Assembly: GCA_965243825.1 (NCBI GenBank)
Contig: CBDEVT010000002.1
Span: forward strand, 107,226-171,225
Length of the DNA: 64,000 nt
Direction: 5' to 3'
Source: Dehalococcoidia bacterium
Lineage (GTDB): Bacteria; Chloroflexota; Dehalococcoidia; Lucifugimonadales; Lucifugimonadaceae
In this document: positions 5,570-57,910 of the stretch, piece by piece
Layout of the letters: the number at the start of each line of letters is the position of its first letter
How positions within the stretch are numbered: the stretch's first letter is position 1
The notes under the pieces: model-generated
The model's input: the letters and a program-made list of their open reading frames with translations, nothing else
Told to the model about the DNA's origin: nothing
Databases searched by the model: none
Made by a program: the position numbers and the translations under genes

Positions 5570-8500
5570 TTGAAAGGCAGCAATCCTGTGATTCGCCTCA
5601 AATGGCCTGTTCTTCCGATCACCTCACTTGCCGTGCTGCTGGCGCTGATCTCTACTTTTCACGAGCTTCCAACAGCTTTCGCGAATCACGATGGCGAACC
5701 GGGTGATCTTGAGGCTCGTGCGATCGGGCTGGTCGTTGACGCTGAGCCGACGCTAGCCCGGGTCAATGAACCGAACGTACCCGACGATTGCTGGACTATC
5801 CAGGAGTTTCCATACACCCGGGATGCCTACTTCGACCGGAAAGAGGAATGCGTTGATCCATGGATTTCTGTGCATCAGATGTTCACCTTTGAGGTAAACG
5901 CAGGTGGAACCTATGTTGTGTGGAATGAACTGCTGGCCCCGGGGATGCCAGCTCAGTTTTTTCCGCCAGTCACTGAGGTATTCGTTGAAACGACGGGTGA
6001 GAATCGCTGGCTGGGATTTCAGTCACCGTTAGTTGATATCGAAAATCAGACATACGGACATCTGCAATCGAATGTCTGGGTCAACGACCTCACACCACTC
6101 CAACGTTGGGGCTGGGACCAGGACATTCATATCGACTATAGGACCCCGGTTGAGGAAGGAATTCGCAATCGCATCGCGTATGCGTTCACTGCCAAAGAAG
6201 ACGGTAAGTGGCGCTTCTCGGTGGGTGGTACGAATCCTCTGCCTCCTGGAACCTACGATGAGGGCGACAATATCCGGGTTTGGGTACAGAGGCTCGATGG
6301 AGCCCCAGAGTCCACGGTCTTCCCATTTGACCGGTTTGAATATCCACCTGCGAATGAACTTGTAATCGAGCACGGTGCAACGGTTTACCGAGACTTCCTA
6401 CTTCTTGATCGGCAGACTAACGAGCCCGCGAGCGGTATTAGCGTGGCACTATCACCGACGGGTTCCTGTAGTTCGCTCGATCCCGGCCACTTACGTTGCA
6501 TCATCAACACGCCGGAACTACCTCTGGGCCAGCACGAGTTCCTGTTCACATCAGCCACCAGGTCCGGCGAACCGGAATCGGTGGTCGATTGGCCTTCTTT
6601 CGGATTCACGACCGTTCCGCGCAGCATCAAGACCAGGGCTGAGATGACACTCGACGCCAAGGCCAAGGGCCAGATTGTGGGCGGGATCTTTGTAACTGGA
6701 GAATCCGGACTTGGTATTAAGTTCCATGAGAACGGCGCGTTGACTCTTGACTCAGGAGAGGCCGTTGCCCTGGGTGTTTCTGCTGACACAGGGTTCGGCG
6801 CAGGTCTGAAGCTTGGCTGGATAACCCCTCGCGCCAAGGGCGAGATCGAGTTCGAAGCAGATATCAAAGCGTTCGAAGCCGTCGCGATTGATATCACCAA
6901 CCCGGATGACTTCGATCAACAGGTCGCCATGAGCGCTTTCGTTCTCGACAAATTGGTGTCTCTTGGAACGATAGCGACGTCCACGCCGCTAGACGTTGTA
7001 CTCGACACGTTCCGTGAAGACGCGCTGCAAGAACAGTTCAGGTCTTTCGTTACAGCGGATGAGATTGGCGTCGCTGCGTCCGCGAACCTCACAGGCAAAC
7101 TCGGATCCTGGACCGGAAACCGCCCGGGACTCGGTGCGCTGAATATAGGAATGGGCGCTACGGCAGGCGGTTCGATTTCGACCAGTTGGAAGTTCGACAA
7201 GAAGACCGGCGACCATGCAATTGTGGCCCGGATATCTGTTGCTGGTTCCGGCCTGTTCGACCCAACAACGTGGCCCATCTACTTCGAAGGCCAGGAGATT
7301 AACTACTCCGTGCTGGCTGGCGCGAATGTCGAGGTGACGTTCGCTTTCGATGGGAATCCTGTCGAAGGGGGAGTGCTTCAAACGGTGGCGGTCTCGGTCA
7401 AAGGCGGAACCACCTGGGAGGAGAGAATCGATTCTGGTTCGGTCAGTATCGCCTTTGACGCACAGCAGTTTGCAGACGCCTCCGACTTCTTGATCGAGAA
7501 TCTCATTGATCTAACCGACCCGGCAAACACCACCGAATTCTCGGCCGAAGTACTGGGCAACCTGCTCCAGGCTGCATTGAAAGATGTTGATGGGGAGCTG
7601 ATCATCAACAGTTCCCGAGGTACTCGTTTCCGACCCACGTTCGAACTTGGTGCGGAGTTGCTGGCAGGAGTAGGGATTAAGGGTGAGGTGGAAGCAGGTG
7701 GCGATTGGCGTCTGGTGGTAACCCAGAAGACACAGGACTGGAGGCTGTTAGCAGACTTTGACGGTAAGCGCGGATTGGTGCAGATCGCAGAGTTCCCTTT
7801 CGAGGAAACTCAGGAGTCAGAGACGCCAGCCTCCGATATCGTGGGTCAGATCATTTTGGACGCACTTGAGGAACACCTGCCCGGTAGATCGTTCAGAGAG
7901 TGGATAAGGGAGCAATGGAACTCTGGCGAAGACCTCACCATTGACGCTTCCAGCGACCAGACCGATACGGCATTGCTCGACTTCACAGGTCATGATCGGA
8001 CGGTGACGAACCGGGTCGACGGTGAAGTGGCGGCGCTAGAAATAGCTGTTCGAACCTGGTTCCACAGGATCTTGCCGAACTGGATCGTTCCGGGAGGTTT
8101 CCGAGGTAGGCCATCGGCACCGAAAAATTTACCTGTATCGCTCAATAGTGGAATTGCAGCGCAGAACGCTTCTTCGCTGTTCTTTGCTTCGGAGTTCATG
8201 GACATCGCGCCGAATGATGTGACTATTGAACCTCCGGTAACAATTCAACTCTCTTACTTGACTGATCCGCCGGATCCACATCAACTGAAGCTTTTTCGGT
8301 ATGCGGGCATTGGCGTATGGAGCCCGTTGCCTACCGAGATCGACACTGAAAATCGAATTGCTACCGCCCAGACCTCGGAGTTTGGGACATTCGTGGTCGG
8401 GCTGGACACAACTCCACCTGAGATCGTTCCGATCGAAACGACTACCGGATTCACAGCTCTGGTCGCGGATTTTGAGGCTGGTATAGATGTCAACTCGATC

Positions 8501-8893
8501 TCGCTGACCGTTGACGGCAAATCAGTACAAACTGAATACGATCTGGCGTCCCAGACTATCTCGCCACTGACCGCAATCGCGGATGGTGCTGCGATCATAC
8601 TTGTCGTGGCTGACACCGCTGGAAATGAAGCGATCTATGAAGATTCTGTAGAACAACTATTACCTGACAGCGATACGGGCTCGAACCTGGACGGCACCAC
8701 CCAGCCAACGGCTACTCCTCGACTGGATGACGAGACCGACACTGAGGATCCAGACAATGCCTCAGGTGGTGGCGGACCCTCGCCAGTGGTGGTCATTCTG
8801 GTAGTTTTGCTCGTACTCGCTTTGCTGGGTGGCGGTGCGTTCTACGTGATGCGTCGACGTCCCAGTGACACGATCCAGCAGAGTTCCAGCTAA
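5570..8893 (+). CDS. Large (1107 aa) secreted, C-terminally membrane-anchored protein of unknown function
   Basis: N-terminal signal 'VLPITSLAVLLALISTFHELPTAFA'. C-terminal 'ASGGGGPSPVVVILVVLLVLALLGGGAFYVMRRRP'. Ig-like segment near the C-terminus. No catalytic motif recognised. TTG start; GTG 5588 is an alternative. Confidence 0.75.
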   Translation: MKGSNPVIRLKWPVLPITSLAVLLALISTFHELPTAFANHDGEPGDLEARAIGLVVDAEPTLARVNEPNVPDDCWTIQEFPYTRDAYFDRKEECVDPWISVHQMFTFEVNAGGTYVVWNELLAPGMPAQFFPPVTEVFVETTGENRWLGFQSPLVDIENQTYGHLQSNVWVNDLTPLQRWGWDQDIHIDYRTPVEEGIRNRIAYAFTAKEDGKWRFSVGGTNPLPPGTYDEGDNIRVWVQRLDGAPESTVFPFDRFEYPPANELVIEHGATVYRDFLLLDRQTNEPASGISVALSPTGSCSSLDPGHLRCIINTPELPLGQHEFLFTSATRSGEPESVVDWPSFGFTTVPRSIKTRAEMTLDAKAKGQIVGGIFVTGESGLGIKFHENGALTLDSGEAVALGVSADTGFGAGLKLGWITPRAKGEIEFEADIKAFEAVAIDITNPDDFDQQVAMSAFVLDKLVSLGTIATSTPLDVVLDTFREDALQEQFRSFVTADEIGVAASANLTGKLGSWTGNRPGLGALNIGMGATAGGSISTSWKFDKKTGDHAIVARISVAGSGLFDPTTWPIYFEGQEINYSVLAGANVEVTFAFDGNPVEGGVLQTVAVSVKGGTTWEERIDSGSVSIAFDAQQFADASDFLIENLIDLTDPANTTEFSAEVLGNLLQAALKDVDGELIINSSRGTRFRPTFELGAELLAGVGIKGEVEAGGDWRLVVTQKTQDWRLLADFDGKRGLVQIAEFPFEETQESETPASDIVGQIILDALEEHLPGRSFREWIREQWNSGEDLTIDASSDQTDTALLDFTGHDRTVTNRVDGEVAALEIAVRTWFHRILPNWIVPGGFRGRPSAPKNLPVSLNSGIAAQNASSLFFASEFMDIAPNDVTIEPPVTIQLSYLTDPPDPHQLKLFRYAGIGVWSPLPTEIDTENRIATAQTSEFGTFVVGLDTTPPEIVPIETTTGFTALVADFEAGIDVNSISLTVDGKSVQTEYDLASQTISPLTAIADGAAIILVVADTAGNEAIYEDSVEQLLPDSDTGSNLDGTTQPTATPRLDDETDTEDPDNASGGGGPSPVVVILVVLLVLALLGGGAFYVMRRRPSDTIQQSSS

Positions 8894-45818: not shown

Positions 45819-47129
45819 TTAGTGTTGCGCCTCCGTCTGAGCGCCGTGTTCTTCATGCTCATCATGGTCGCCATGTTCGTGCGCTATGACCGCCAGCGCA
45901 CCGAACATGAGGGTTAGTACTGAGAAAATTGCCGCCTGGATAACGCCGACAAACAACTCCAGTCCGAGGAACGGGATCAGTCCGATCAACGGCAGCAGGA
46001 AGCCCATCGCTATAAGCAGCACTTCGCCGGCGAACATGTTTCCAAATAGACGGAACGTGAACGAGATGATCTTGACGAACTCAAGGAAGAGTTCGAGCGC
46101 ACCGAGGGCTGCACCGATCGGGTCTTTAATAGGATTGATGATGAACTTGCCTGCGTAACCGGTGAATCCGAGTGTCTTGAATCCCCAGAACTGCACGCTG
46201 ACCATCGCAAATATGGCGATCGCAAGAGTCGTGTTCAGATCCGTGCTGGCACCGCGCAGGAAGGGGACAAGGATCCCGAGACGGCCGTCGTCTACGTCTT
46301 GGACAGTCCATTCCTGTTCTTCGTCGGGTTCGACGCCCGGCAAGATACCCGGCTCCTCGACCTGGTGAATGAAATCTTCGATTTCTTGATCACTGTGGAA
46401 ATCGGCCGGAAGCTCCACGATCTGTTCAAGCCGCACCTTCCACTGCTCGCCACGACCTGGGTTGATGAATCCAACTCCAGATTGACCGGAGAAGATGACG
46501 AATCCATCTGATCCGTGCTCTGCAAATACGATCTCGAGCGCTTCTTCAACGTGATGGTCATCTTTGTAGGTGCGGACGAACTCTACGAAGCCTTTCTTCT
46601 TAAGGTCCTTAGCGAGCCCGCCTTGCCCCTCGGCCTTCAGCTCTTTCTTGAGCTTCAGGACCATGAACTCTTCAACGGTCTCAATTCGGCCAATGTTAGT
46701 GACACCGGGGATCGTACCGAGCCAGTTAGAGAAGAGAACGCCGAGGAAGATTGCTGTGACGACTGGAAGGAACATGCGACCTTTGCGGCCGCCACCTACG
46801 GACTCAGCGAGGTTTGTGAAGAACTCGTAGAAGGTCTCGAACAGGTTCTGCCACCTGCCGGGAACGTCCTTCATGTTTCGAGTAGCCAGGAATATCAGGA
46901 CAAAGATCACGAGGATCGCCAGCCAGAACATCACGTAGGTGTTCATCAGCTGGTAGCTGCCGATCTCTACGATGTACTCAGCTGGTAGCTGGATTAGTGG
47001 GATCGGGCCGCCGAGGAATCCTAGTCCGAACGATGCACCAAGTGCACCACCCGCCACTGAGATAACCATCACCGCCAATACGATGACGGCAGCGAGAAGA
47101 AGTTTGGGGTTCGAGGTTAGTTTCCCCAA
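45819..47129 (-). CDS. atpB: Fo ATP synthase subunit a, with ~145-aa soluble insertion and His-rich C-terminal tail
   Basis: Conserved 'SNWLGTIPG', 'STDLNTTLAIAI' and 'RLFGNMFAGE' (essential Arg). 436 aa, versus about 230-290 remembered as typical. The tail is 'HEHGDHDEHEEHG'. Confidence 0.93.
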   Translation of the reverse strand: MGKLTSNPKLLLAAVIVLAVMVISVAGGALGASFGLGFLGGPIPLIQLPAEYIVEIGSYQLMNTYVMFWLAILVIFVLIFLATRNMKDVPGRWQNLFETFYEFFTNLAESVGGGRKGRMFLPVVTAIFLGVLFSNWLGTIPGVTNIGRIETVEEFMVLKLKKELKAEGQGGLAKDLKKKGFVEFVRTYKDDHHVEEALEIVFAEHGSDGFVIFSGQSGVGFINPGRGEQWKVRLEQIVELPADFHSDQEIEDFIHQVEEPGILPGVEPDEEQEWTVQDVDDGRLGILVPFLRGASTDLNTTLAIAIFAMVSVQFWGFKTLGFTGYAGKFIINPIKDPIGAALGALELFLEFVKIISFTFRLFGNMFAGEVLLIAMGFLLPLIGLIPFLGLELFVGVIQAAIFSVLTLMFGALAVIAHEHGDHDEHEEHGAQTEAQH

Positions 47130-47171: not shown

Positions 47172-47465
47172 TCAGCGCTTTGTGCGCTTTTTGCCGACTG
47201 CATTGAGCAGTCTGATCATGCCGACGAAAGCCGCCACCACCCCCAACAACAATCCCGTTAAAAGCAGTGCTGGCTCTGTGCCGAACTGCCTGTCGAGCAG
47301 CCAGCCTGCACCTATCCCTGCGCCGATGCTGCCCACAACATACCAGCCAATGCCCGATATGCGGGCCAGCAATAGGGCAGTTTCCTGCCAATCGCCAGCT
47401 TGCGAAGCGTTACCGTCTCGTCTGTCGTCGCCGTTTTCGTCTTTCGGACTCAGGCGCTCAGACAC
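47172..47465 (-). CDS. atpZ: AtpZ/AtpI-family small membrane protein
   Basis: Two TM helices 'GIGWYVVGSIGAGIGAGWLLDRQFGTEPALLLTGLLLGVVAAFVGM', first gene of the atp operon. GTG start after GAGG. Confidence 0.8.
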   Translation of the reverse strand: MSERLSPKDENGDDRRDGNASQAGDWQETALLLARISGIGWYVVGSIGAGIGAGWLLDRQFGTEPALLLTGLLLGVVAAFVGMIRLLNAVGKKRTKR

Positions 47466-47712
47466 GGCTCAACCTCGTCTGAAATCGTCGAGTGTGAACA
47501 ATATCACAAATGGAATCCCGCGCCAACCAGAACGCTGCGGATTTCGTAATCAGATTGGGATCTGTTGTGACCCAACGGCATCCAGACGACTGCGAAACGC
47601 ATCTACTTAACCGACGCTTTCTTCCGCAGCGGAATATCTCATCTCTCCGGCGCCTAGGCAAGAGGGAAATCCGTGTAACAGAACTCTGACCGACGGATAA
47701 ACTGAACCATTC

Positions 47713-48006
47713 ATGCAGCTATTGATCACAGAAAAAGCTCGAGAAAACCTGGGCAAGCGCCAGCGGCCGGTAGCACTCGATTACCTTGATGCCATCGGTT
47801 GAGGCGGTCACGCCAGGGTGTCGGTCGACACTTACGCTCGAAAATCAAACCTTAGCGCTTATCGCAGAGTGCGAGATCAAGGCGTTGAGTTGCTCGTTTC
47901 CAAGGCCCTTGCGGCCAGAGCGGTTGCTCTCCTTATAGAGGAGAAAGGATTTCTCTGGTTCAAATGGCTTGCTGTACGTGCCCAACTGGCAGGTCATCAC
48001 ACCTGA
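47713..48006 (+). CDS. Candidate selenoprotein: small HesB/IscA-like protein with in-frame UGA (codon 30)
   Basis: ATG 47713, then 29 codons 'MQLLITEKARENLGKRQRPVALDYLDAIG', TGA at 47800-47802, then the same frame stays open for 67 more codons to 48006. A SECIS-like hairpin lies 13 nt downstream of the UGA. The 'G-U-G-G' context mirrors the 'GCSG' of A-type carriers. Confidence 0.5.
47816..47833 (+). promoter_or_regulatory. Putative bacterial SECIS hairpin
   Basis: GGGUGUC-GGUC-GACACUU: a 7-bp stem including two G-U pairs with a GGUC apical loop, starting 13 nt after the UGA. From memory, the geometry and loop resemble the E. coli fdhF SECIS (GGUC apical loop, about 11 nt spacing). Confidence 0.45.
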
Positions 48007-48188
48007 AGCCACTGATCTGGTTCCACCGTGGGTGGACGAATTTTTGAAATGGCCACTGGAATGTTGAGTCAACACAGCGCCTAACCGATCTGGTGGTCGT
48101 AGCATCAAATTGACGTCAGGCATCAACTCGTACCGCCCTCCTTTCGCCATCGTGTCGCGATAGAAAGCCAACAAGACAGGAACATCAA

Positions 48189-49685
48189 GTGACCTCCACA
48201 CGAGATCAGGCGTCGATGCCCGGTCAAAAGCGGGTAATGAAAACCGCTGACTCGGTCTTCTACGAGTTGACCCGAACGATGTGTCCCGAGTGCAAGACGA
48301 TCATCAACGGCGAGATTCACCTGAAAGACGGTCAGGTGATTATGCGAAAGCGCTGCACTAAAGGATGTTTTGGCGGTAAGACGTTGGAGGTGCTGGTTTC
48401 CCCGGACGCTGAGGGATACATAAACAGCCTGAAGTACAACAAACCCGGCACCATTCCGCTTGAGTTCAGTACCGAAATCAAGGACGGATGCCCGTATGAC
48501 TGCGGCCTCTGCCCGGACCACAAACAACACGCATGCCTCGTTCTCATCGAAGTCAATACGGCCTGCAACCTGGCGTGCCCAACCTGCTTTGCTGATGCCG
48601 GCCCCGGTTACAACATAACGTTGGATGAATGCGAAACGATGCTAGACACGTTCATTCGCACCGAAGCAGATCCTGAGTCGGTCCAGTTTTCCGGTGGGGA
48701 ACCGACCCTACATCCTCAGTTGTTCGAAATGATGAAGATGGCGAAAACCAAAGGTATTCGTCACATCATGGTGAATACCAACGGTCTGCGAATCGTGCGC
48801 GACCCTGAGTGGGCGGAACAGTTCGCCGCGCTCGATCCAACGATCTACTTTCAGTTCGATGGACTGCGCGACGAAACCTACGTGAAGCTGCGGGGCGAGC
48901 CTCTGCTCAAAGAGAAATTCCAGGTACTCGATAGGCTTGCAGACTTTGGACTCAACACGATTCTCGTCGCAGCGATCGAACGTGATGTGAATGAAGATGA
49001 AATCCCCGCCTTAATCAATTTCGGACTTGAGCACGAGGCTGTTCGAGCAGTGATGTTTCAACCTGTGACCCACACGGGGCGTCACCTGGAGTTTGACCCG
49101 ATGAACCGGGTAACCATTCCTGAAGTGATTGAGCGCATTGACCAGGGCACTGACGGGAAGTTCGTTAAGTCAGACTTCGTGCCGGTGCCATGCTGCCATC
49201 CGGGCTGCCAGTCGATCACATACGCCTACGTTGACGATGACGGTTCGATCACACCGCTTCCTCGAATAGTTGATGTGGATGAGTATCTTGACTACATCAC
49301 AAACAGGGCAATGCCGGAGTTGACTGAGGATGTGAAAGGCGCACTTGAAGCTCTGTGGTCATCGTCAGCGACGCCAGGTTCCGACAAAACTTCAGACAGC
49401 TTTTGCGCTGCGTGTGGCGATATCTCTCTTCAAGGGTTCAGACACAGTGACATAGCAAAGCACCTCTTTTCGATCAGCATCAAGGACTTCCAGGATCCGT
49501 ACACGTTCGACATCAAGAAACTGATGAAGTGCTGTGTGGAGATCGCGACGCCCGATGGGCGGCTGATCCCTTTCTGCTCGTACAACAATGTGGGATATCG
49601 GGAACAGGTGCGCGATGAGATGGTGAAACAGAGAGCCAGGGAACGGATTGAACGTATCTCTCTCTCGAAGGTGGATCACACTTGA
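48189..49685 (+). CDS. Radical SAM enzyme of the MJ0619 / tetraether-lipid-synthase (Tes, GDGT-MAS)-like family
   Basis: N-terminal zinc ribbon 'CPECK...(17)...CTKGC', 'GCPYDCGLCPDHKQHAC', and radical SAM 'CNLACPTC' (CX3CX2C). 'FSGGEPTL', further Cys clusters 'VPCCHPGCQ', 'CAACGD' and 'KCCVE...FCSYN'. 498 aa. Confidence 0.75.
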   Translation: MTSTRDQASMPGQKRVMKTADSVFYELTRTMCPECKTIINGEIHLKDGQVIMRKRCTKGCFGGKTLEVLVSPDAEGYINSLKYNKPGTIPLEFSTEIKDGCPYDCGLCPDHKQHACLVLIEVNTACNLACPTCFADAGPGYNITLDECETMLDTFIRTEADPESVQFSGGEPTLHPQLFEMMKMAKTKGIRHIMVNTNGLRIVRDPEWAEQFAALDPTIYFQFDGLRDETYVKLRGEPLLKEKFQVLDRLADFGLNTILVAAIERDVNEDEIPALINFGLEHEAVRAVMFQPVTHTGRHLEFDPMNRVTIPEVIERIDQGTDGKFVKSDFVPVPCCHPGCQSITYAYVDDDGSITPLPRIVDVDEYLDYITNRAMPELTEDVKGALEALWSSSATPGSDKTSDSFCAACGDISLQGFRHSDIAKHLFSISIKDFQDPYTFDIKKLMKCCVEIATPDGRLIPFCSYNNVGYREQVRDEMVKQRARERIERISLSKVDHT

Positions 49686-50206
49686 CTGTCAAACCGATAG
49701 TTCTGCCACCGGCTGAGATTCATGTCCACTCAGATCGTCGGCTCGCTTTCCAGGTGCTCACCGCGTTCGGTTCCGGAGATTCGGAGACAGGAATACCCCG
49801 CCCGAAGGTGTTGGAAGACAGAGGCGATAGAAAACTCGTCGCCTTTCATACCCCTATCAAGTTGCTGGGGCGCAGCATTGTGTTTCCAACCAACGAGTGG
49901 GTGACGCTGAACGAACCGGAACAAATTGACTTCAGACTGGTTCCCGGCACGGGGCCGATAACCGGTGGGCTGAAGCTTTTAGAAGATCGATTTACGTTGG
50001 AGGACCGCAAGGGCTGCACCCTTCTCAGGTACGAGAGTACATTTGGCATCCGGTGGTCGTGGCCTGGCTGGATCCTGGGCAAACTGCTTTTTGCTCCGGT
50101 GCTGCGTTCATTTATGCAGGAGCATCTGGATGAAGTGAAGATCACGATCGAGGACCGGGCAAAGAGGAGCCGGGTCTTCCCCCAGGTAGAGAGCTGTTCC
50201 GGTTAG
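49682..50206 (+). CDS. SRPBCC (START/polyketide-cyclase-like) ligand-binding protein
   Basis: 174 aa with a beta-rich pattern and a long C-terminal helix. TTGA overlap with the radical SAM stop suggests translational coupling. Confidence 0.55.
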   Translation: MTVKPIVLPPAEIHVHSDRRLAFQVLTAFGSGDSETGIPRPKVLEDRGDRKLVAFHTPIKLLGRSIVFPTNEWVTLNEPEQIDFRLVPGTGPITGGLKLLEDRFTLEDRKGCTLLRYESTFGIRWSWPGWILGKLLFAPVLRSFMQEHLDEVKITIEDRAKRSRVFPQVESCSG

Positions 50207-50255
50207 GCAATGGCCGGAATCTTCGAAGAACGACACAAAATCGGAAAGGAGAGTT

Positions 50256-51071
50256 ATGACACTGAACGAAAATGTACCCGCGGTGTTCGATGAGAACTCA
50301 GTCGCGGCATGTTGCACGACTCTCTACTCTCATCCGCTGGCATCCTGGCTTATGGGCGAATCATTGCATCCCGGTGGACTTGCTCTCACCGACCGATTGG
50401 CTGACATCTCCGGTATAGGCATCGATAGTCGCGTGCTTGATATTGGCAGTGGTCACGGCTCATCCGCCCTACACCTTGCTGCGACGCGCGGTTGTGAAGT
50501 TGTCGGGGTAACGCTCGAGGCTGAGGGAACTGCATCTGCGCGAAGGCGTGCTGATTTGCAGGGGCTAGAGGATGCTGTTGAGTTCATACAGGCTGATGTT
50601 CAGGAGTTCGCACTCGAGCCAGATCGTTTCGATGCGGTTCTTATGGAGTGCGTCTACTCAACGCTAGACCGAAAGGCCCGCACGCTCAAACGAATTCACG
50701 AGATGTTGCCCGTGGGAGGACGCCTGGCTCTGTCTGATGTGACCGTGGAGGGGCAACTTCCGCATGAACTCCAGGGGATAGTCGCCAGCGCACTGTGCAT
50801 CGGAAACGCACTCAATCACCACGACTATGTTGATCTTGTTCACGATGCCGGATTCGAAATAATTGCAGCTGAAGACGTTAACCACGTTGCAGTTGAATTC
50901 GTTGAGAAGTTGCGGACCGCATTGATGATGGCCGAAGCCGCAGTTGGACTCGGCAAGCTGGACGTTAGCCGAGATTCGATTCGTGAAGTACGCGGGCATG
51001 TACGAATGGCCCAGGCAGCAATTCACGAGGGAATGCTCAGCTACAGCATTGTCGTCGCGCGGAAACCGTAG
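50256..51071 (+). CDS. Class I SAM-dependent methyltransferase, ArsM/AS3MT-like arrangement of cysteines
   Basis: Motif I 'VLDIGSGHG'. 'ECVYSTL...GGRLALSDVTVEGQLPHEL...ALCIGNAL' parallels ArsM 'SNCVINL...GGRFAVSDVV..GEIPEAL...VGCLAGAL'. An N-terminal 'AACC' pair is also present. Confidence 0.7.
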   Translation: MTLNENVPAVFDENSVAACCTTLYSHPLASWLMGESLHPGGLALTDRLADISGIGIDSRVLDIGSGHGSSALHLAATRGCEVVGVTLEAEGTASARRRADLQGLEDAVEFIQADVQEFALEPDRFDAVLMECVYSTLDRKARTLKRIHEMLPVGGRLALSDVTVEGQLPHELQGIVASALCIGNALNHHDYVDLVHDAGFEIIAAEDVNHVAVEFVEKLRTALMMAEAAVGLGKLDVSRDSIREVRGHVRMAQAAIHEGMLSYSIVVARKP

Positions 51072-51250
51072 ACCCGACATATGGTTGCCGCAAACCGGTT
51101 CGAATCCGCAGGACGCATGATCATGCGTTAGTGAGTTTTGTTTCAGCGATACCGTCTCGATGCCATAACTCCGTGCGGCCGGCTTACAGGAATTAATCCC
51201 GGTCCGAGCATTCGTACACGGTCACATCTTCCGACCCAAGTAGCTAGTGG

Positions 51251-51865
51251 TTACTCGAGTTGGCCAACCTTTCGCCAATCTCCCGCTGCGACCGCCCTCC
51301 GAATCTCTCCCGCTTCCCGGCTGAAGTGAGTCGCGACGACGAAAATGCTCAATGCCACACAAAAGGCGACGATCTCACCACGAATCCCTGCCAGCCAGGT
51401 GATCAGGTTAAGGGCGATGATCCCTGCTCCAAACGCCCACACCCAGCTCCTGGTGGCCCAGAAAGTGACGAACACAAATGGTGCTGCAGCCCACGAGAGT
51501 ATCGGCATCATGCCAACAGATATGCCGAATATGATCGCCACGCCTTTGCCACCGGCAAACCCGATGTAAGGCGACCAGTTATGCCCGACCGTTGCTGCCA
51601 GTGCTCCGGCGAAGAGACCGATATCCGACAGGTCCATCAACAGGCCTGCAACTATCACGACGGTACCCTTGAGGCCGTCGAGCGCGAGTACCGCAACTCC
51701 GTAGCGCCAGCCGAGTGAGCGAAACGCATTGACTGTTCCTACGTTGCCGTTGCCTGTCTCACGAATATCGACACCGGTACGTCTGCCAGCGATGTATGCG
51801 AATGGAATCCCACCGACTAAATATGCAGTAACTGCGTAAGCGGTGATGATGATGGCGTCTAGCAT
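51251..51865 (-). CDS. plsY: Glycerol-3-phosphate acyltransferase (acyl-phosphate dependent)
   Basis: 'GGIPFAYI...GNGNVGTVNAFR...LDGLKG', polytopic, 204 aa. Confidence 0.9.
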   Translation of the reverse strand: MLDAIIITAYAVTAYLVGGIPFAYIAGRRTGVDIRETGNGNVGTVNAFRSLGWRYGVAVLALDGLKGTVVIVAGLLMDLSDIGLFAGALAATVGHNWSPYIGFAGGKGVAIIFGISVGMMPILSWAAAPFVFVTFWATRSWVWAFGAGIIALNLITWLAGIRGEIVAFCVALSIFVVATHFSREAGEIRRAVAAGDWRKVGQLE

Positions 51866-52822: not shown

Positions 52823-53111
52823 TCTCGTCTCTTTCCGTGATGGTCGGTTCGACCGATGAAATTACGCTGGCAGTCCAGCAAGTCCTCCGGAAATCTACTT
52901 GTTGGTTCCAAGGTGAGCAAACTTGCCACAGTCACAATTCGCTTATCAGCCGGCCTGCCATTACAACTGAGTTATGAGGAACCTGCTTAAAAACACGGAA
53001 ACCGGTTGCAAATTTCGCTTGGTTAGGCGTCAGGGGTTGCGGATATCGTGCGCCCAATTTCATCAAGAGTGCGAAATCGCTTGCGCACCCCTTAGCCGCC
53101 GGAGGCCATCC

Positions 53112-53396
53112 ATGCTGTATTTCAATTCATGTCCTCGTTGCAAGACTGGAACTGTCCAGCTTGAATCTGATTTCTTCGGCAGCTATCTATCTTGTCTCAA
53201 CTGCGGCTTCGAGAAGAGCGCTGCATCTGTACGCAAACTCGACTACGAGGAGATGCAACGTGAAGCCGAAGAGGCCGCCGCAGTTGCCGTCGTGACCGTC
53301 GAGGCGGAAGACTCAAGCGATGAAGGCGAAGACATCTACGAGGATCTCGACGCCGATGAAGACGAGCTAATGGAGCTTGAGCGCGCTGCTGGCTAG
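53112..53396 (+). CDS. Small zinc-ribbon protein with acidic C-terminal tail
   Basis: 'CPRCKTG...(17)...CLNCG' then an Asp/Glu-rich tail. ATG 53112 is preceded by GGAGG (53101-53105). The track start at 52974 is an over-extension. Confidence 0.6.
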   Translation: MLYFNSCPRCKTGTVQLESDFFGSYLSCLNCGFEKSAASVRKLDYEEMQREAEEAAAVAVVTVEAEDSSDEGEDIYEDLDADEDELMELERAAG

Positions 53397-56383: not shown

Positions 56384-57910
56384 ATGCCAACTTCTCGTCG
56401 TCCCAAACTCGCTCGGACAATCGGTGAACTCAAAAAGACCGGTTACAAACCGCGGTCTGTCCGAGAAGAGATTCACACCAATGTCGTTGAGCGTCTGAAA
56501 TCAGGCCAATCACTTCTGCCCGGTATCGTCGGGTACGAGACGACGGTGGTTCCTGAGTTGGAAAACGCTCTTCTGGCAGGGCAGAGCATCGCGATGCTCG
56601 GCGAACGAGGACAGGGGAAGTCGCGGCTGATACGTTCACTGACGCAATTTCTGGACGAGTACGTTCCCGCGCTTCCTGGTACTGAAACTAATGACGATCC
56701 TCTTTCTCCGATCTCCGCTGCCGGAAAGGCCATGGTCGCAGACAGCGGTGAAGAAACTCCGATCGAGTGGCTCCACCGTGATGAACGGTATGGGGAGAAG
56801 CTCGCAACACCAGATGTGACGATGGCGGACCTGATCGGAGATGTTGATCCGATAAAGGTCGCGGAAGGACGTTACCTGAGTGATGAACTGACCATTCACT
56901 ATGGCCTGATTCCGCGCACCAACCGCGGGATCTTTTGCGTGAATGAGTTGCCTGACCTTGCGGAACGTATTCAGGTTGGCCTGTTCAACCTGATGGAGGA
57001 GCAGGATGTTCAGATTCGCGGATACAACATCCGATTGCCTCTCGACATCATGGTTGTTGCCACCGCCAATCCCGAGGACTACACGAACCGAGGTCGAATT
57101 ATCACACCGCTTAAGGACCGTTTCGGCGCCCAGATCCGTACGCACTACCCGCAGACCACTGAGCATGAGAGAAGCATAGTTGAGCAGGAGAGTGCTCATT
57201 TCGAAGATGCAGGGATCAAAGTGGTTGTGCCCGAATTCATGTCAGAGATAGTGGCTGAGCTGAGCCACCAGGCGCGTCGTAGTGGTGAAGTAAATCAACG
57301 GTCAGGTGTCAGCGTTCGCTTATCCATTGCCAACCAGGAGACGCTGCGCAGTGCCGCCTTGAAACGCGGTTTAGCGCTTGGAGAGGATTGCGCCTCACCT
57401 CGAATCACCGACCTGCCTGCTTTAGCTTCTTCAATGCGGGGCAAGATCGAGCTAGAGACGTTTGAGGAAGGGAGGGAAGATCGTGTAGTTGAGGATCTGA
57501 CGAAGCGAGCGGTGGCTGAGGTTTTCGGTCGTACTGTAAACGGCGCGCATCTTGCCAGGGTGGTGAGCAGCTTCGAGTCAGGCGAGACTGTCGAGGCGAG
57601 TGCAACAAGACGATCTTCTGATTACGCAGGCCGACTTGGTGCAGTTCCCGCTCTCGCGGAGATCGTGACTGATCTGTCCTGCGACGGCTCAGAGGCCGAG
57701 ACAGCTTCGGCTATCGAATTCGTACTTGAGGGCCTTCACCTGACACGCCAGCTAAATCGCGATGTAGTAGATGGCGGATTCAGGTACGTTAAAGAGCCGC
57801 CGCAGCCAGACCCATCATCCATGTCTGGACTCGCGGATGCGTTTGATGACGAGCGCCGCGCTGAGCTCCGAAGAAGACTGCAACAACGGCGGAGGCGCAA
57901 CCGGGAGTAG
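56384..57910 (+). CDS. AAA+ ATPase, Mg-chelatase ChlI/BchI-like
   Basis: Walker A 'LGERGQGKS'. Walker B-like 'GIFCVNELPDL' (NE rather than DE). Sensor region 'VVATANPEDY'. 508 aa. Confidence 0.75.
   Translation: MPTSRRPKLARTIGELKKTGYKPRSVREEIHTNVVERLKSGQSLLPGIVGYETTVVPELENALLAGQSIAMLGERGQGKSRLIRSLTQFLDEYVPALPGTETNDDPLSPISAAGKAMVADSGEETPIEWLHRDERYGEKLATPDVTMADLIGDVDPIKVAEGRYLSDELTIHYGLIPRTNRGIFCVNELPDLAERIQVGLFNLMEEQDVQIRGYNIRLPLDIMVVATANPEDYTNRGRIITPLKDRFGAQIRTHYPQTTEHERSIVEQESAHFEDAGIKVVVPEFMSEIVAELSHQARRSGEVNQRSGVSVRLSIANQETLRSAALKRGLALGEDCASPRITDLPALASSMRGKIELETFEEGREDRVVEDLTKRAVAEVFGRTVNGAHLARVVSSFESGETVEASATRRSSDYAGRLGAVPALAEIVTDLSCDGSEAETASAIEFVLEGLHLTRQLNRDVVDGGFRYVKEPPQPDPSSMSGLADAFDDERRAELRRRLQQRRRRNRE

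What the first reader, a model, noticed from the sequence alone, without database searches (positions are those of the whole stretch)
47713..51071. Four-gene cassette: UGA-containing HesB/IscA-like ORF, Tes/MJ0619-family radical SAM, SRPBCC protein and ArsM-like methyltransferase
Seen in sequence:
- A co-directional run of a small ORF with an in-frame UGA and a 498-aa radical SAM enzyme.
- The radical SAM enzyme has CX3CX2C plus an N-terminal zinc ribbon and at least three further Cys clusters.
- An SRPBCC protein whose TTG start overlaps the radical SAM stop.
- A class I methyltransferase whose 'CC', 'ECV' and 'LCIGNAL' cysteines are arranged as in arsenite methyltransferases.

Established knowledge, from memory:
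- The 'GCPYDCGLCP.H' plus 'CNLACPTC' architecture belongs to the MJ0619 family. This family was first assigned to pterin methylation and later shown to be the archaeal tetraether lipid synthase (Tes/GDGT-MAS).
- Radical SAM plus ArsM pairs make organoarsenicals (ArsS for arsenosugars, ArsL for arsinothricin).
- HesB-like proteins are a known selenoprotein family.

Inference: this combination is not a described pathway. Candidate roles are (a) C-C coupling or methylation of membrane lipids, with SRPBCC as lipid carrier and plsY lying convergently next door, or (b) synthesis of an organo-arsenic or organo-selenium lipid or metabolite.
Basis: partly seen in the sequence, partly recalled or inferred. 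Interest (0 to 1): 0.8.

Follow-up and report, generated by a model that had tools for sequence, protein, structure and literature searches.

The report
Tes-like radical SAM plus methyltransferase pair
A bacterial relative of the archaeal membrane-lipid enzyme Tes sits in an operon with a cysteine-rich methyltransferase that resembles arsenite methyltransferases. The same pair recurs across many phyla, so these "bacterial Tes homologues" probably do something other than build membrane-spanning lipids. The UGA-containing gene next door is a real selenoprotein gene, but a separate one.

Summary
They are not one four-gene cassette.

**Core unit.** A radical SAM (rSAM) gene and a methyltransferase (MTase) gene lie side by side in 78 of 80 related loci. 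These loci come from 8 bacterial phyla. The pair also occurs on haloarchaeal and mycobacterial plasmids.

**The rSAM.** It is a full-length homologue of Tes/GDGT-MAS (PDB 7TOL, E=1e-80). It falls below the NCBIfam cut-offs for both Tes and TrsS and carries five extra conserved cysteines.

**The MTase.**
- Its best match is the DVU_1556 family and its second best is ArsM; both are below cut-off.
- Its Cys132 and Cys181 align with residues 174 and 224 of the red-alga arsenite methyltransferase CmArsM, numbered as the arsenite-binding cysteines from memory.
- Its N-terminus does not align with ArsM.

**The middle gene.** It has an SRPBCC fold (pLDDT 87) and occurs only in close relatives.

**The UGA ORF.** It is a genuine selenoprotein gene of the CC/Se-motif family, not HesB. 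It is monocistronic and confined to this clade.

**Other recurrent neighbours.** These are thiol-redox proteins, MFS transporters, PlsY and, in a sister branch, Lgt-like genes.

Function is untested. My best guess is radical C-H activation of a lipid-like substrate, coupled to methylation of a thiol-bound heteroatom. Tetraether synthesis looks unlikely.

The parts
47713..48006 (+). Monocistronic selenoprotein gene of the CC/Se-motif family (97 codons). The Sec codon TGA is at 47800-47802. It is not part of the conserved rSAM-MTase module.
   Evidence: The TGA is conserved in all 6 orthologues. Substitutions are mostly synonymous or third-position in this frame on both sides of the TGA: 36 synonymous to 6 non-synonymous downstream, and 10 to 8 upstream, against L001. 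Remote full-length homologues P0265 and P0267 have Cys at the aligned position, GCG. It scores 26.8 bits against NF041239, below the cut-off of 40 but covering the full length. PF28096 CC_Se_fam is recorded on orthologue P0251 and on P0267.
47816..47833 (+). Bacterial SECIS-like hairpin: stem GGGUGUC, loop GGUC, stem GACACUU. It begins 14 nt after the UGA.
   Evidence: The sequence GGTGTCGGTCGACAC is invariant in all 6 orthologues, third codon positions included. Elsewhere downstream, 52 of 54 codons vary at the third position. RNAfold predicts this GUGUC/GGUC/GACAC hairpin in 5 of the 6 sequences; for the window's own sequence the minimum-free-energy fold differs. No Rfam family matched.
48022..48046 (+). 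Terminator-like hairpin plus T-run, directly after the stop of the selenoprotein gene.
   Evidence: Found by the terminator scan. A CCGCCGTGAGCGG-type hairpin occupies the same position in L001 and L002.
48189..49685 (+). Radical SAM enzyme of the Tes/TrsS superfamily and first gene of the operon. The exact start codon is uncertain: GTG at 48189, or a downstream ATG.
   Evidence: Pfam matches Radical_SAM and Zn_ribbon_HMPTM. NCBIfam gives TrsS 330 bits (cut-off 490) and Tes 318 bits (cut-off 450). It aligns over its full length with PDB 7TOL (GDGT-MAS) at E=1.3e-80. More than 7000 homologues were found. Cysteine conservation is shown.
49682..50206 (+). SRPBCC (START/Bet v 1)-fold protein, translationally coupled to the rSAM gene. 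It is a lineage-specific insertion between the two core genes.
   Evidence: The TTG start overlaps the rSAM stop. The AF2 model has pLDDT 87.3, and its Foldseek matches to TcmN/ZhuI have TM-scores of 0.7-0.8. Homologues lie between rSAM and MTase only in L001-L004. Elsewhere, homologues are paired with the MTase alone or with a redoxin selenoprotein.
50256..51071 (+). Class I SAM-dependent methyltransferase, DVU_1556-like. It has conserved cysteines at C19/C20, C132 and C181 and is the obligate partner of the rSAM.
   Evidence: NCBIfam gives DVU_1556 125.8 bits (cut-off 155) and ArsM PRK11873 79 bits (cut-off 263). The cysteines are 97-99% conserved in 79 sequences. C132 aligns with C174, and C181 with C224, of PDB 4FR0 ArsM. 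A homologue lies immediately downstream of the rSAM in 78 of 80 loci.
51112..51139 (+). Terminator-like hairpin plus T-run closing the rSAM-ORF3-MTase operon.
   Evidence: Found by the terminator scan; the sequence is shown.
51251..51865 (-). plsY (acyl-phosphate:glycerol-3-phosphate acyltransferase), convergent with the operon. It is context only and a possible link to lipids.
   Evidence: Pfam G3P_acyltransf at 119.8 bits. A PlsY-family gene follows the MTase on the same strand in L006, L007 and L009-L015.

Best explanation
The region holds two separate things.

**(1) An operon, 48189-51071: rSAM - SRPBCC - MTase.** Its invariant core is a two-gene module.
- One gene is a radical SAM enzyme from an unnamed third branch of the Tes/TrsS superfamily.
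- The other is a DVU_1556-like class I methyltransferase. It keeps two cysteines that align with residues 174 and 224 of CmArsM, which I number from memory as the arsenite-binding pair.

**(2) A monocistronic gene, 47713-48006,** encoding a CC/Se-motif selenoprotein. It is only a clade-specific neighbour of the operon.

**How the module most likely works (inferred, not shown).**
1. Like Tes, the rSAM uses a 5'-deoxyadenosyl radical to remove a hydrogen from an unactivated carbon. The substrate is probably hydrophobic, most likely a glycerolipid chain. In this lineage the SRPBCC protein would hold or deliver it.
2. Instead of joining two lipid tails, the carbon radical is captured by a thiophilic atom (S, Se or As). 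That atom would be held on cysteines: the extra C116, CC335/336 and CxxC406/409 of the rSAM, and/or the Cys pair of the MTase.
3. The MTase methylates that atom.
4. Redox partners recycle the disulfides formed. The partners seen near the pair are a flavoprotein disulfide reductase, redoxin, VKOR, CcdA and DUF3179.
5. An MFS transporter, present in some lineages, moves the substrate or product.

The module is probably not a GDGT or brGDGT tail-coupling synthase.
For: **Shown: the pair is conserved.**
- The MTase lies immediately downstream of the rSAM in 78 of 80 loci from 8 bacterial phyla.
- The pair also occurs on a Mycolicibacterium plasmid and on four haloarchaeal plasmids.
- Where the pair is split, both genes remain on the same contig.

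**Shown: family placement.**
- Members tested across the clade give the same profile results: rSAM 327-352 bits against TrsS and 303-336 against Tes; MTase 126-142 bits against DVU_1556, with ArsM second.
- The rSAM aligns over its full length with 7TOL and keeps the Tes cluster cysteines. C116, C335, C336 and a CxxC motif are additional.
- For MTase residues 125-208, the four best PDB matches are all ArsM, and C132 and C181 fall on the cysteines at ArsM positions 174 and 224.

**Shown: recurrent neighbours.**
- Thiol-redox proteins: an Lpd/MerA-like reductase in 23 of 80 loci and in 2 haloarchaeal loci; VKOR in 7 loci; DUF3179 in 7 loci plus haloarchaea, a family listed among predicted UxxC/T selenoproteins; CcdA with a disulfide oxidoreductase in Mycolicibacterium; redoxin with DUF547 in haloarchaea.
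- Lipid-related genes: PlsY follows the MTase on the same strand in 9 loci; an Lgt-family gene replaces the MTase in L052, Chondrinema, Persicobacter and M. branderi; ORF3 has an SRPBCC fold.

**Against a tetraether role.**
- Haloarchaea have Tes homologues but make no GDGTs (PMC8941075). The haloarchaeal plasmid copies found here carry the MTase partner.
- Tes homologues were found in only 3 of 14 acidobacteria that produce iso-diabolic acid (PMC13159169).

**Operon boundaries.** They rest on the start/stop overlap, the Shine-Dalgarno sequences and the flanking terminator-like hairpins.
Against: - There are no biochemical or genetic data for any member of this branch.
- Every family score is below the curated cut-off.
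- As a whole-length profile, the MTase is closer in the PDB to RebM, MitM and the phosphoethanolamine N-methyltransferases than to ArsM, which ranks 11th.
- The MTase N-terminal CC/HPGG region does not align with the ArsM N-terminus. The haloarchaeal MTase translated here (Halorarius) lacks the CC.
- No ars, mer or Se-metabolism genes are regularly nearby. An ArsC-like gene occurs in only 3 loci.
- The lipid inference rests on homology to Tes and on neighbours present in a minority of loci.
- The 80 loci were retrieved with the peptide patterns DCGLCP[ED]H and DFVPVPCC. The 100% conservation of C335/C336 and of the first auxiliary motif is therefore partly built in by the search.
- The supposed rSAM-MTase fusion protein turned out to be a frameshift artefact.
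Confidence: 0.4

Rival explanations
1. The rSAM is the bacterial counterpart of Tes. It couples two fatty-acyl or alkyl tails to make membrane-spanning lipids (iso-diabolic acid or brGDGT). The methyltransferase adds the extra C5/C6 methyl branches seen in those lipids.
For: - The rSAM is a full-length homologue of GDGT-MAS and keeps all its cluster cysteines.
- Zeng et al. proposed this role. They named Koribacter and Solibacter as holding the best bacterial Tes homologues.
- Both organisms make methylated iso-diabolic-acid lipids (PMC13274423).
- Many Acidobacteriota loci carry the pair.
- PlsY lies next to the pair in some loci.
Against: - The same pair is in haloarchaea, which make no GDGTs. 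It is also on a Mycolicibacterium plasmid.
- Tes homologues occur in only 3 of 14 producers of iso-diabolic acid.
- By established enzymology, a class I SAM methyltransferase cannot methylate an unactivated sp3 carbon.
- Conserved ArsM-type cysteines and thiol-redox neighbours have no role in this scheme.
- The family lacks the ~20-residue insert of MJ0619 and has five extra conserved cysteines.
Confidence: 0.2
2. The pair makes an organoarsenical, possibly an arsenolipid. The ArsM-like enzyme methylates As(III) held by its cysteine pair. The Tes-like rSAM forms a carbon-arsenic bond with a lipid or SAM-derived carbon radical. The logic is that of ArsS/ArsM and ArsL/ArsM.
For: - C132 and C181 align with the cysteines at positions 174 and 224 of ArsM, and ArsM structures are the best PDB matches for that segment.
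- ArsM families are the nearest characterised NCBIfam families across the clade.
- An ArsC-type LMW-PTP gene with a CX5R motif and a distal Cys pair lies directly upstream, on the same strand, in Halorarius. Similar genes are within about 5 kb in L076 and L077.
- MFS transporters and disulfide reductases fit the ArsM catalytic cycle.
- From memory, rSAM-plus-ArsM pairs are the known route to arsenosugars and arsinothricin.
Against: - No arsR, acr3, arsB or arsH cluster appears in the 80 loci or in the window.
- An ArsC-like gene is present in only 3 loci.
- The ArsM N-terminal cysteines are not alignable.
- ArsM scores are far below cut-off: 79-105 bits in the bacterial members tested and 65 in the haloarchaeal one, against 263.
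- The whole-length profile is closer to RebM, MitM and the phosphoethanolamine N-methyltransferases.
Confidence: 0.13
3. All four genes form one pathway. The small selenoprotein would serve the rSAM/MTase chemistry, for example as a carrier of S, Se or metal.
For: - The selenoprotein gene lies 0.2-2.5 kb upstream of the rSAM in every orthologous locus seen.
- Its GUGG/GCGG site and the thiol-redox theme of the module are compatible.
- The sister rSAM family, TrsS, is itself a selenoprotein family.
Against: - Synteny is seen only among close relatives (71-92% identity), so it can be explained by common descent.
- Opposite-strand genes separate the two in L001, L002 and L090.
- The small ORF has its own terminator-like hairpin.
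- It is absent from 78 of the 80 loci.
- The Cys-containing family member P0267 sits next to PPK2, MalQ and Iso_dh genes.
Confidence: 0.08
4. The rSAM is a pterin C-methylase, the function first assigned to MJ0619 (HMPT dimethyltransferase). The MTase is a helper in cofactor biosynthesis.
For: The Pfam domain name is Zn_ribbon_HMPTM. One JGI homologue is annotated as 7,8-dihydro-6-hydroxymethylpterin dimethyltransferase.
Against: - MJ0619 was later solved and characterised as GDGT-MAS with bound lipid (PDB 7TOL; review PMC13459092).
- To my knowledge these hosts do not make methanopterin.
- No pterin or folate genes are adjacent.
Confidence: 0.03

Closest known systems
Tes / GDGT-MAS (MJ0619; PDB 7TOL/7TOM; NCBIfam NF045702)
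   Same: - The two proteins align over their full length (E=1.3e-80).
- Both have the N-terminal zinc-ribbon/rubredoxin cysteines.
- Both have the GCPYDCGLCP.H auxiliary motif and the CX3CX2C radical SAM motif.
- Both have the C340-type cysteine and the C-terminal CC...C motif.

A shared chemistry of hydrogen abstraction from an unactivated carbon, assisted by auxiliary clusters, is therefore likely.
   Different: - It scores below the Tes equivalog cut-off (318 against 450), and only the first ~310 residues match the model in one stretch.
- It lacks the ~20-residue insert after the PVP motif.
- It has five extra conserved cysteines (C116, CC335/336, CxxC406/409).
- It has an adjacent methyltransferase partner in nearly every locus. 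Whether archaeal Tes genes have one was not tested here.
- It occurs in organisms that make no tetraethers.
TrsS radical SAM (seleno)protein (NF045646) plus DVU_1556-family methyltransferase (NF045667); catalogued by NCBIfam and by Haft & Tolstoy 2025, function unknown
   Same: These are the best-scoring NCBIfam families for both genes in most clade members tested; for the Ktedonobacter rSAM, Tes and TrsS tie (336.4 v 335.7 bits). The profiles are covered over their full length. The architecture of the rSAM matches TrsS better than Tes: one stretch covering positions 3-431 of 441.
   Different: - Both scores are below cut-off (330 against 490; 126 against 155).
- Neither the window's rSAM nor any of the 80 homologues contains selenocysteine.
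- The bacterial branch adds an N-terminal CC motif to the MTase.
- I could not read the paper that describes TrsS. That TrsS and the DVU_1556 MTase are themselves neighbours is therefore inferred from the family names and from memory, not checked.
Arsenite methyltransferase ArsM (PDB 4FR0/4FS8, 5EVJ), and the rSAM+ArsM pairs ArsS/ArsM (arsenosugars) and ArsL/ArsM (arsinothricin)
   Same: - It has the class I methyltransferase fold.
- Residues 125-208 match ArsM best in the PDB, with C132 aligned to C174 and C181 to C224.
- ArsM is the second-best NCBIfam family.
- The gene-pair logic, radical SAM plus cysteine-rich methyltransferase, is the same (from memory).
   Different: - The score is far below the ArsM cut-off.
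- The N-terminal Cys44/Cys72 region is not alignable.
- As a whole-length profile it is closer to RebM, MitM and the phosphoethanolamine N-methyltransferases.
- There is no ars operon context.
- The rSAM partner is Tes-like. ArsS scores only E=5e-8, and ArsL did not appear among the listed matches.
Mss, the bacterial membrane-spanning lipid synthase (Thermotoga/Thermoanaerobacter)
   Same: It is a radical SAM enzyme acting on lipid tails. It is the confirmed bacterial route to diabolic and iso-diabolic acids.
   Different: Mss is only remotely related to Tes, and the papers read here mention no methyltransferase partner. I made no sequence comparison with the window protein.
CC/Se motif family (seleno)protein (NF041239, Pfam PF28096)
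   Same: - The profile is covered over its full length (positions 1-89 of 91).
- The GUGG site aligns with GCG in the Cys homologues.
- PF28096 is recorded on the 64%-identical orthologue P0251.
   Different: - The score is below the NCBIfam cut-off (26.8 against 40).
- This clade has only Sec forms.
- Its C-terminus ends in ...AGHHT, without the C-terminal cysteine seen in P0265 and P0267.
SRPBCC / START / Bet v 1 superfamily (e.g. TcmN ARO/CYC, PDB 2RER)
   Same: The predicted fold matches, with TM-scores of 0.7-0.8. A few homologues carry PF10604 Polyketide_cyc2.
   Different: Sequence identity is 10-18%. The window protein itself has no Pfam or NCBIfam hit. Its ligand is unknown.

Membership tests
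Tes / GDGT-MAS (NF045702) | Radical SAM CX3CX2C motif plus the N-terminal HMPTM-type zinc ribbon | tested here: met
   PF04055 scores 69.6 bits. PF23545 scores 31.9 bits, above its cut-off of 27.
Tes / GDGT-MAS (NF045702) | Auxiliary-cluster cysteines of MJ0619 are conserved | tested here: met
   C101/105/108, C340 and C448/449/463 align with MJ0619 cysteines.
Tes / GDGT-MAS (NF045702) | Score above the curated equivalog cut-off | tested here: not met
   318.3 bits against a cut-off of 450, split into two stretches. Homologues tested across the clade score 303-336.
Tes / GDGT-MAS (NF045702) | Forms tail-to-tail C-C bonds between lipid chains (GDGT or macrocyclic archaeol) | not testable with these tools
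   This needs expression and lipidomics. Indirect evidence argues against it: haloarchaea have homologues but no GDGTs, and homologues occur in only 3 of 14 iso-diabolic-acid producers.
TrsS radical SAM (seleno)protein (NF045646) | Score above the curated equivalog cut-off | tested here: not met
   330.3 bits against a cut-off of 490, although profile positions 3-431 of 441 are covered in a single stretch.
TrsS radical SAM (seleno)protein (NF045646) | Partnered with a DVU_1556-type methyltransferase | tested here: inconclusive
   The window's partner hits NF045667 best, at 125.8 bits against a cut-off of 155. I could not verify the genomic context of TrsS itself because the paper is not held.
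Arsenite methyltransferase ArsM | Cysteines equivalent to CmArsM Cys174 and Cys224 (the As(III) ligands, as I recall them) | tested here: met
   A phmmer search with residues 125-208 returned ArsM structures as the top four hits. C132 aligns with C174 and C181 with C224. Both are ~98% conserved.
Arsenite methyltransferase ArsM | N-terminal cysteines equivalent to Cys44 and Cys72 | tested here: not met
   The N-terminal 75 residues do not match ArsM. A family-specific CC...HPGG motif is present instead, and the Halorarius homologue lacks the CC.
Arsenite methyltransferase ArsM | Score above the curated cut-off, and an ars gene context | tested here: not met
   PRK11873 scores 79 bits against a cut-off of 263. 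No ars genes appear among the conserved neighbours or in the window. An ArsC-like gene occurs in only 3 loci.
DVU_1556 family methyltransferase (NF045667) | Score above the curated cut-off | tested here: not met
   125.8 bits against a cut-off of 155, with profile positions 2-212 of 213 covered. Four other clade members tested score 127.7-141.5 bits.
SRPBCC superfamily | Helix-grip fold: a beta-sheet wrapped around a long C-terminal helix | tested here: met
   The AF2 model has pLDDT 87.3, with strands followed by helix 127-162. Foldseek finds TcmN, ZhuI and Bet v 1 proteins at probability 1.00 and TM-scores up to 0.8.
SRPBCC superfamily | Pfam Polyketide_cyc2 (or related) profile hit | tested here: not met
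   The window protein has no Pfam or NCBIfam hit. Only a few homologues carry PF10604.
Bacterial selenoprotein gene | Conserved in-frame UGA with coding signal on both sides | tested here: met
   Six orthologues all have the TGA, and synonymous or third-position changes dominate upstream and downstream.
Bacterial selenoprotein gene | UGA aligns with Cys in homologues | tested here: met
   P0265 (GSVGCGKP) and P0267 (GRGCGGRS) have Cys at the aligned position, at E about 5e-4 in a library of 1.8 billion proteins.
Bacterial selenoprotein gene | SECIS hairpin just downstream of the UGA | tested here: met
   An invariant hairpin with a GGUC loop starts 14 nt after the UGA, and synonymous variation is suppressed there. 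No Rfam model matched.
Bacterial selenoprotein gene | The genome encodes SelA, SelB, SelD and tRNA-Sec | not testable with these tools
   No tRNA is found in the 64-kb window, and no Sec-machinery gene appeared among the 20 large ORFs surveyed. The rest of the genome is not available. Dehalococcoidia are known to be rich in selenoproteins.
HesB-like selenoprotein (TIGR01911) / IscA (Fe-S_biosyn) | Profile match to TIGR01911 or PF01521 | tested here: not met
   Neither profile was hit at E<=0.1 (NCBIfam) or E<=10 (Pfam). The only hit is NF041239, the CC/Se motif family.
CC/Se motif family (NF041239 / PF28096) | Profile match over the full length | tested here: inconclusive
   It scores 26.8 bits against a cut-off of 40, at E=4e-6, covering positions 1-89 of 91. 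PF28096 is precomputed on orthologue P0251 and on P0267. The local Pfam copy lacks that model.

The most novel reading that the evidence does not exclude
The module is a new kind of radical carbon-heteroatom lipid-modifying system. A Tes-like enzyme would activate the end of a lipid chain and attach a methylated thiophilic atom supplied by the ArsM-like partner. In its most striking form this would be the unknown synthase of arsenic-containing fatty acids and hydrocarbons. Alternatively it could make methylthio- or methylseleno-lipids. If true, "bacterial Tes homologs" could no longer be used as genomic markers for brGDGT producers.
Probability: 0.12. Interest if true: 0.9.

Novelty: new variant of a known kind. 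Interest (0 to 1): 0.55.

Why it matters
Geochemists use branched tetraether lipids (brGDGTs) as palaeothermometers and are still looking for the genes that make them. "Bacterial Tes homologs" have been the standing candidate since 2022. They were still untested in a 2026 paper I read.

This analysis adds four points:
- In the clade sampled, the homologue is almost always tied to a cysteine-rich, ArsM-like methyltransferase.
- It is often accompanied by thiol-redox proteins.
- It occurs in haloarchaea, which Zeng et al. report make no GDGTs despite having Tes homologues, and on a mycobacterial plasmid.
- It carries extra conserved cysteines that archaeal Tes lacks.

Together these argue for a different chemistry and give concrete experiments in cultured hosts: Ktedonobacter racemifer, Dictyobacter alpinus, Mycolicibacterium vanbaalenii JOB5 and Haloarcula. 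If the chemistry is carbon-heteroatom bond formation on lipids, it would be a new reaction class for radical SAM enzymes.

The analysis also documents a small Sec-only clade of the CC/Se-motif selenoprotein family in Dehalococcoidia.

Tried and rejected
1. **Rosetta-stone fusion.** P0069 (757 aa) looked like an rSAM-MTase fusion. It is a 1-nt frameshift in a 6x long-read contig: the true rSAM C-terminus, QNVGYREQVREE, continues in another frame. I rejected it as evidence.
2. **AF2 model of the MTase.** Only two sequences were permitted in the alignment. The model reached pLDDT 57, so I ran no fold search on it.
3. **Rfam.** The scan of 47400-51300 gave no SECIS or other credible RNA family.
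4. **TrsS literature.** The paper that describes TrsS (Haft & Tolstoy 2025, mSystems 10:e0141724) is not in the library. A search for DVU_155x locus tags found nothing.
5. **Source contig.** P0121 is 100% identical to ORF3, but the contig look-up found no record. The source genome is therefore known only as a Chloroflexota/Dehalococcoidia relative of MAG OFTM297.
6. **HesB/IscA assignment of the small ORF.** No profile supports it.
7. **Antisense ORF.** The 118-aa ORF opposite the small gene (47845-48201, minus strand) is not the coding one. Third-position variation follows the + frame.
8. **MerA identity of the neighbouring flavoprotein.** It scores below the MerA cut-off (369-381 against 454). 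The one sequence I inspected (L018) has no Cys pair near its C-terminus.
9. **Sec machinery and ars genes.** No tRNA was found in the window, and neither Sec machinery nor ars genes appeared among the 20 large window ORFs surveyed.
10. **Sec variants.** No Sec variant of the conserved cysteines exists among the 80 rSAM and MTase homologues. The apparent exceptions look like frameshifts or contig ends.

Full report
**Observation.**

The window holds, on the + strand:
- a 97-codon ORF (47713-48006) with one in-frame TGA at 47800-47802;
- a 498-aa radical SAM (rSAM) gene (48189-49685);
- a 174-aa ORF (49682-50206) whose TTG start overlaps the rSAM stop;
- a 271-aa methyltransferase (MTase) gene (50256-51071).

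plsY (51251-51865) and an MBL-fold gene follow on the minus strand, convergent with these genes. The ATP synthase operon lies upstream on the minus strand. GC content is unremarkable. The rest of the window is housekeeping: carAB, pyrB/C-type genes, cobT, a Fe/B12-type ABC transporter, a P-type ATPase and malic enzyme. The closest relatives are Chloroflexota/Dehalococcoidia MAGs.

**The radical SAM enzyme.**

*Family placement.*
- Pfam finds Radical_SAM and the Zn_ribbon_HMPTM domain of MJ0619.
- The protein aligns over its full length with the solved GDGT-MAS/Tes structure 7TOL (E=1.3e-80).
- In NCBIfam it scores 330 bits against TrsS (cut-off 490) and 318 against Tes (cut-off 450).
- Homologues give nearly the same pair of sub-threshold scores in Ktedonobacter, Bryobacterales, Clostridia, Mycolicibacterium, Halorarius and Chondrinema.
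- The family is therefore an unnamed third branch of the Tes/TrsS superfamily.

*Cysteines.*
- It keeps every cysteine group that MJ0619 has.
- It lacks a ~20-residue insert after the PVP motif.
- It has extra conserved cysteines at C116, C335/C336 and a CxxC at 406/409.
- Caveat: the 80 loci were fished with the peptide patterns DCGLCP[ED]H and DFVPVPCC, so part of that conservation is built in by the search. The independently found plasmid homologues in Mycolicibacterium and four haloarchaea also have the CC motif. Chondrinema and M. branderi do not.

**The conserved unit is a gene pair.**

A tblastn search with the window's proteins against the 80 best loci gave these counts:

| Gene | Loci with a homologue (of 80) |
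|---|---|
| MTase, immediately downstream of the rSAM on the same strand | 78 |
| ORF3, between the pair | 4 (L001-L004) |
| Small UGA ORF | 2 |

- The loci come from Chloroflexota, Acidobacteriota, Actinomycetota, Dormibacterota, Pseudomonadota, Verrucomicrobiota, Armatimonadota and Bacillota.
- Of the two exceptions, one contig ends before the position where the MTase would be. The other (L052) has an Lgt-family gene in place of the MTase.
- In one genome the rSAM sits alone while an ORF3-MTase pair lies 1 Mb away on the same contig.
- The pair is also on a Mycolicibacterium vanbaalenii plasmid, with overlapping genes, and on four haloarchaeal plasmids.
- An apparent rSAM-MTase fusion protein proved to be a frameshift artefact.
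- In the window, the start/stop overlap, the Shine-Dalgarno sequences and the terminator-like hairpins at 48022 and 51112 delimit an rSAM-ORF3-MTase operon.

**The methyltransferase.**

- Its best NCBIfam family is DVU_1556 (125.8 bits against a cut-off of 155). The next is arsenite methyltransferase (79 against 263), followed by ArsM-type selenoproteins. The same order holds across the clade.
- Across 79 sequences, C19, C20, C132 and C181 are 97-99% conserved, within the motifs CC..Y..lllGds.HPGG, cECa and aC..dA. The exceptions look like frameshifts or truncations.
- Searched alone, residues 125-208 find ArsM structures as the top four PDB hits. C132 aligns with CmArsM C174 and C181 with C224. 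That numbering of the arsenite ligands is from memory.
- As a whole-length profile, however, the family is closer to RebM, MitM and the phosphoethanolamine N-methyltransferases. ArsM ranks 11th.
- The N-terminal CC/HPGG region does not align with ArsM. The Halorarius homologue lacks the CC.
- "ArsM-like" is therefore true of the acceptor-site segment only. Family membership is not met.

**ORF3.**

- It has no Pfam or NCBIfam hit.
- An AlphaFold model built from 44 homologues has pLDDT 87. Foldseek matches it to TcmN and ZhuI aromatase/cyclases and to Bet v 1/START proteins, with TM-scores of 0.7-0.8. That is the SRPBCC fold.
- Homologues also occur without the pair. In a Rokubacteria locus, one follows a redoxin gene with an in-frame TGA in a WUPYC motif.
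- ORF3 is a lineage-specific accessory gene, not a core part.

**The UGA ORF.**

*Evidence for a selenoprotein gene.*
- Six orthologues all keep the TGA.
- Substitutions are mainly synonymous or third-position in this frame on both sides of it: 36 to 6 downstream and 10 to 8 upstream against L001.
- A 15-nt stretch starting 14 nt after the UGA is invariant even at third positions and forms a hairpin with a GGUC loop.
- Database entries for close homologues are 62-aa truncations, or show W at the TGA position.
- An exhaustive search finds full-length homologues with Cys at that position.
- Dehalococcoidia are known to be rich in selenoproteins.
- The Sec machinery itself could not be checked.

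*Family.*
- The family is CC/Se-motif (NF041239, sub-threshold; PF28096 on the orthologue), not HesB/IscA.

*Not part of the cassette.*
- The gene has its own terminator-like hairpin.
- In L001, L002 and L090 it is separated from the rSAM by opposite-strand genes.
- It is restricted to this clade.
- A Cys-containing relative lies in an unrelated context.

**Other recurrent neighbours of the pair.**

- An Lpd/MerA-like flavoprotein disulfide reductase is in 23 of 80 loci and in 2 haloarchaeal loci. It scores below the MerA cut-off.
- MFS transporters are in about 12 loci, and near the plasmid copies in Mycolicibacterium and Salinirubellus.
- VKOR is in 7 loci.
- DUF3179, listed among predicted UxxC/T selenoprotein families, is in 7 loci, next to the split ORF3-MTase pair, and in haloarchaea.
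- CcdA with a protein disulfide oxidoreductase is in Mycolicibacterium.
- Redoxin with DUF547 is in three haloarchaea.
- PlsY follows the MTase on the same strand in nine Dehalococcoidia loci.
- An ArsC-type LMW-PTP gene is in three loci only.
- In a sister arrangement, an Lgt-family gene sits next to the rSAM where other loci carry the MTase.

**Interpretation.**

The literature treats bacterial Tes homologues as candidate brGDGT synthases (PMC8941075). No test of that was reported in a 2026 paper I read (PMC13274423). Several facts argue against simple tail-to-tail coupling:
- Tes homologues are found in only 3 of 14 acidobacteria that produce iso-diabolic acid (PMC13159169).
- Haloarchaea have Tes homologues but no GDGTs, and the haloarchaeal plasmid copies seen here carry the MTase partner.
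- The partner MTase is cysteine-rich.
- The neighbours have a thiol-redox theme.
- The rSAM carries extra conserved cysteines.

I propose the following, as inference. The rSAM performs Tes-like C-H activation on a hydrophobic, probably glycerolipid, substrate. The resulting radical is captured by a thiol-bound S, Se or As atom. The partner MTase methylates that atom, and redox proteins recycle the cysteines. My confidence in this mechanism is about 0.4. The genomic facts beneath it are much firmer.

The rivals are:
- brGDGT synthesis plus methylation (0.2);
- organoarsenical or arsenolipid synthesis (0.13);
- a true four-gene pathway that includes the selenoprotein (0.08);
- pterin methylation (0.03).

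**Novelty.**

The closest catalogued system is the TrsS plus DVU_1556-methyltransferase pair in NCBIfam, whose function is unknown. The lipid papers read here do not mention a methyltransferase partner (term counts). This is a new variant of a known kind. It is of moderate to high interest because it redirects a live question and can be tested in cultured hosts.

Noticed in passing
window 45819-47129 (-): The ATP synthase subunit a gene encodes 436 aa. By eye, a large acidic, apparently soluble stretch (roughly residues 150-300) interrupts the membrane protein. This is far longer than the usual ~230-270 aa (length from memory). Orthologues of 392-464 aa occur in related MAGs (L001, L087, L089, L090).
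   Followed up: partly
L081 5472-5966 (+), also L082-L084: In a Rokubacteria-type contig, the ORF3 (SRPBCC) homologue is preceded by a redoxin or peroxiredoxin-like gene. Gene callers split it at an in-frame TGA within a WUPYC motif. It is a probable UxxC selenoprotein, annotated as two ORFs of 48 and 92 aa.
   Followed up: partly
L093 5268-7389; L095 2352-5545; L096 3268-5371; L052 10001-12100: A sister arrangement pairs the Tes-like rSAM with a prolipoprotein diacylglyceryl transferase (Lgt)-family gene instead of the methyltransferase. It occurs in Chondrinema, Persicobacter, Mycobacterium branderi and one Dehalococcoidia MAG.
   Followed up: partly
L094 3473-6134 (Halorarius halobius plasmid): An ArsC-type low-molecular-weight phosphatase gene lies directly upstream of the rSAM-MTase pair on the same strand. 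It has a CX5R(S) loop and a distal Cys pair. Two DUF3179 genes, a second methyltransferase and a dihydrolipoyl-dehydrogenase-like gene are nearby.
   Followed up: partly
L001 9258-9857 (-); L002 9199-9672 (-); L090 5095-5565 (-): A 156-199 aa multi-pass membrane protein gene with no Pfam hit lies between the selenoprotein gene and the rSAM in related MAGs. It is missing from the window, where only 182 nt separate the two genes.
   Followed up: no
L088 7001-9274: A database protein of 757 aa looks like an rSAM-methyltransferase fusion. It is a frameshift artefact of a 6x long-read assembly and a caution for domain-fusion inference from such contigs.
   Followed up: yes
window 52974-53396 (+): A 140-aa ORF has a CPRC...CLNC zinc-ribbon-like motif and a strongly acidic C-terminal tail. 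It lies downstream of the MBL-fold gene. I did not analyse it.
   Followed up: no
window 5570-8893 (+) and 56384-57910 (+): Two large ORFs (1107 aa and 508 aa) have no Pfam hit at E<=1e-5. The first lies next to genes with fn3 and FG-GAP repeats, and the second next to a VWA-domain gene.
   Followed up: no
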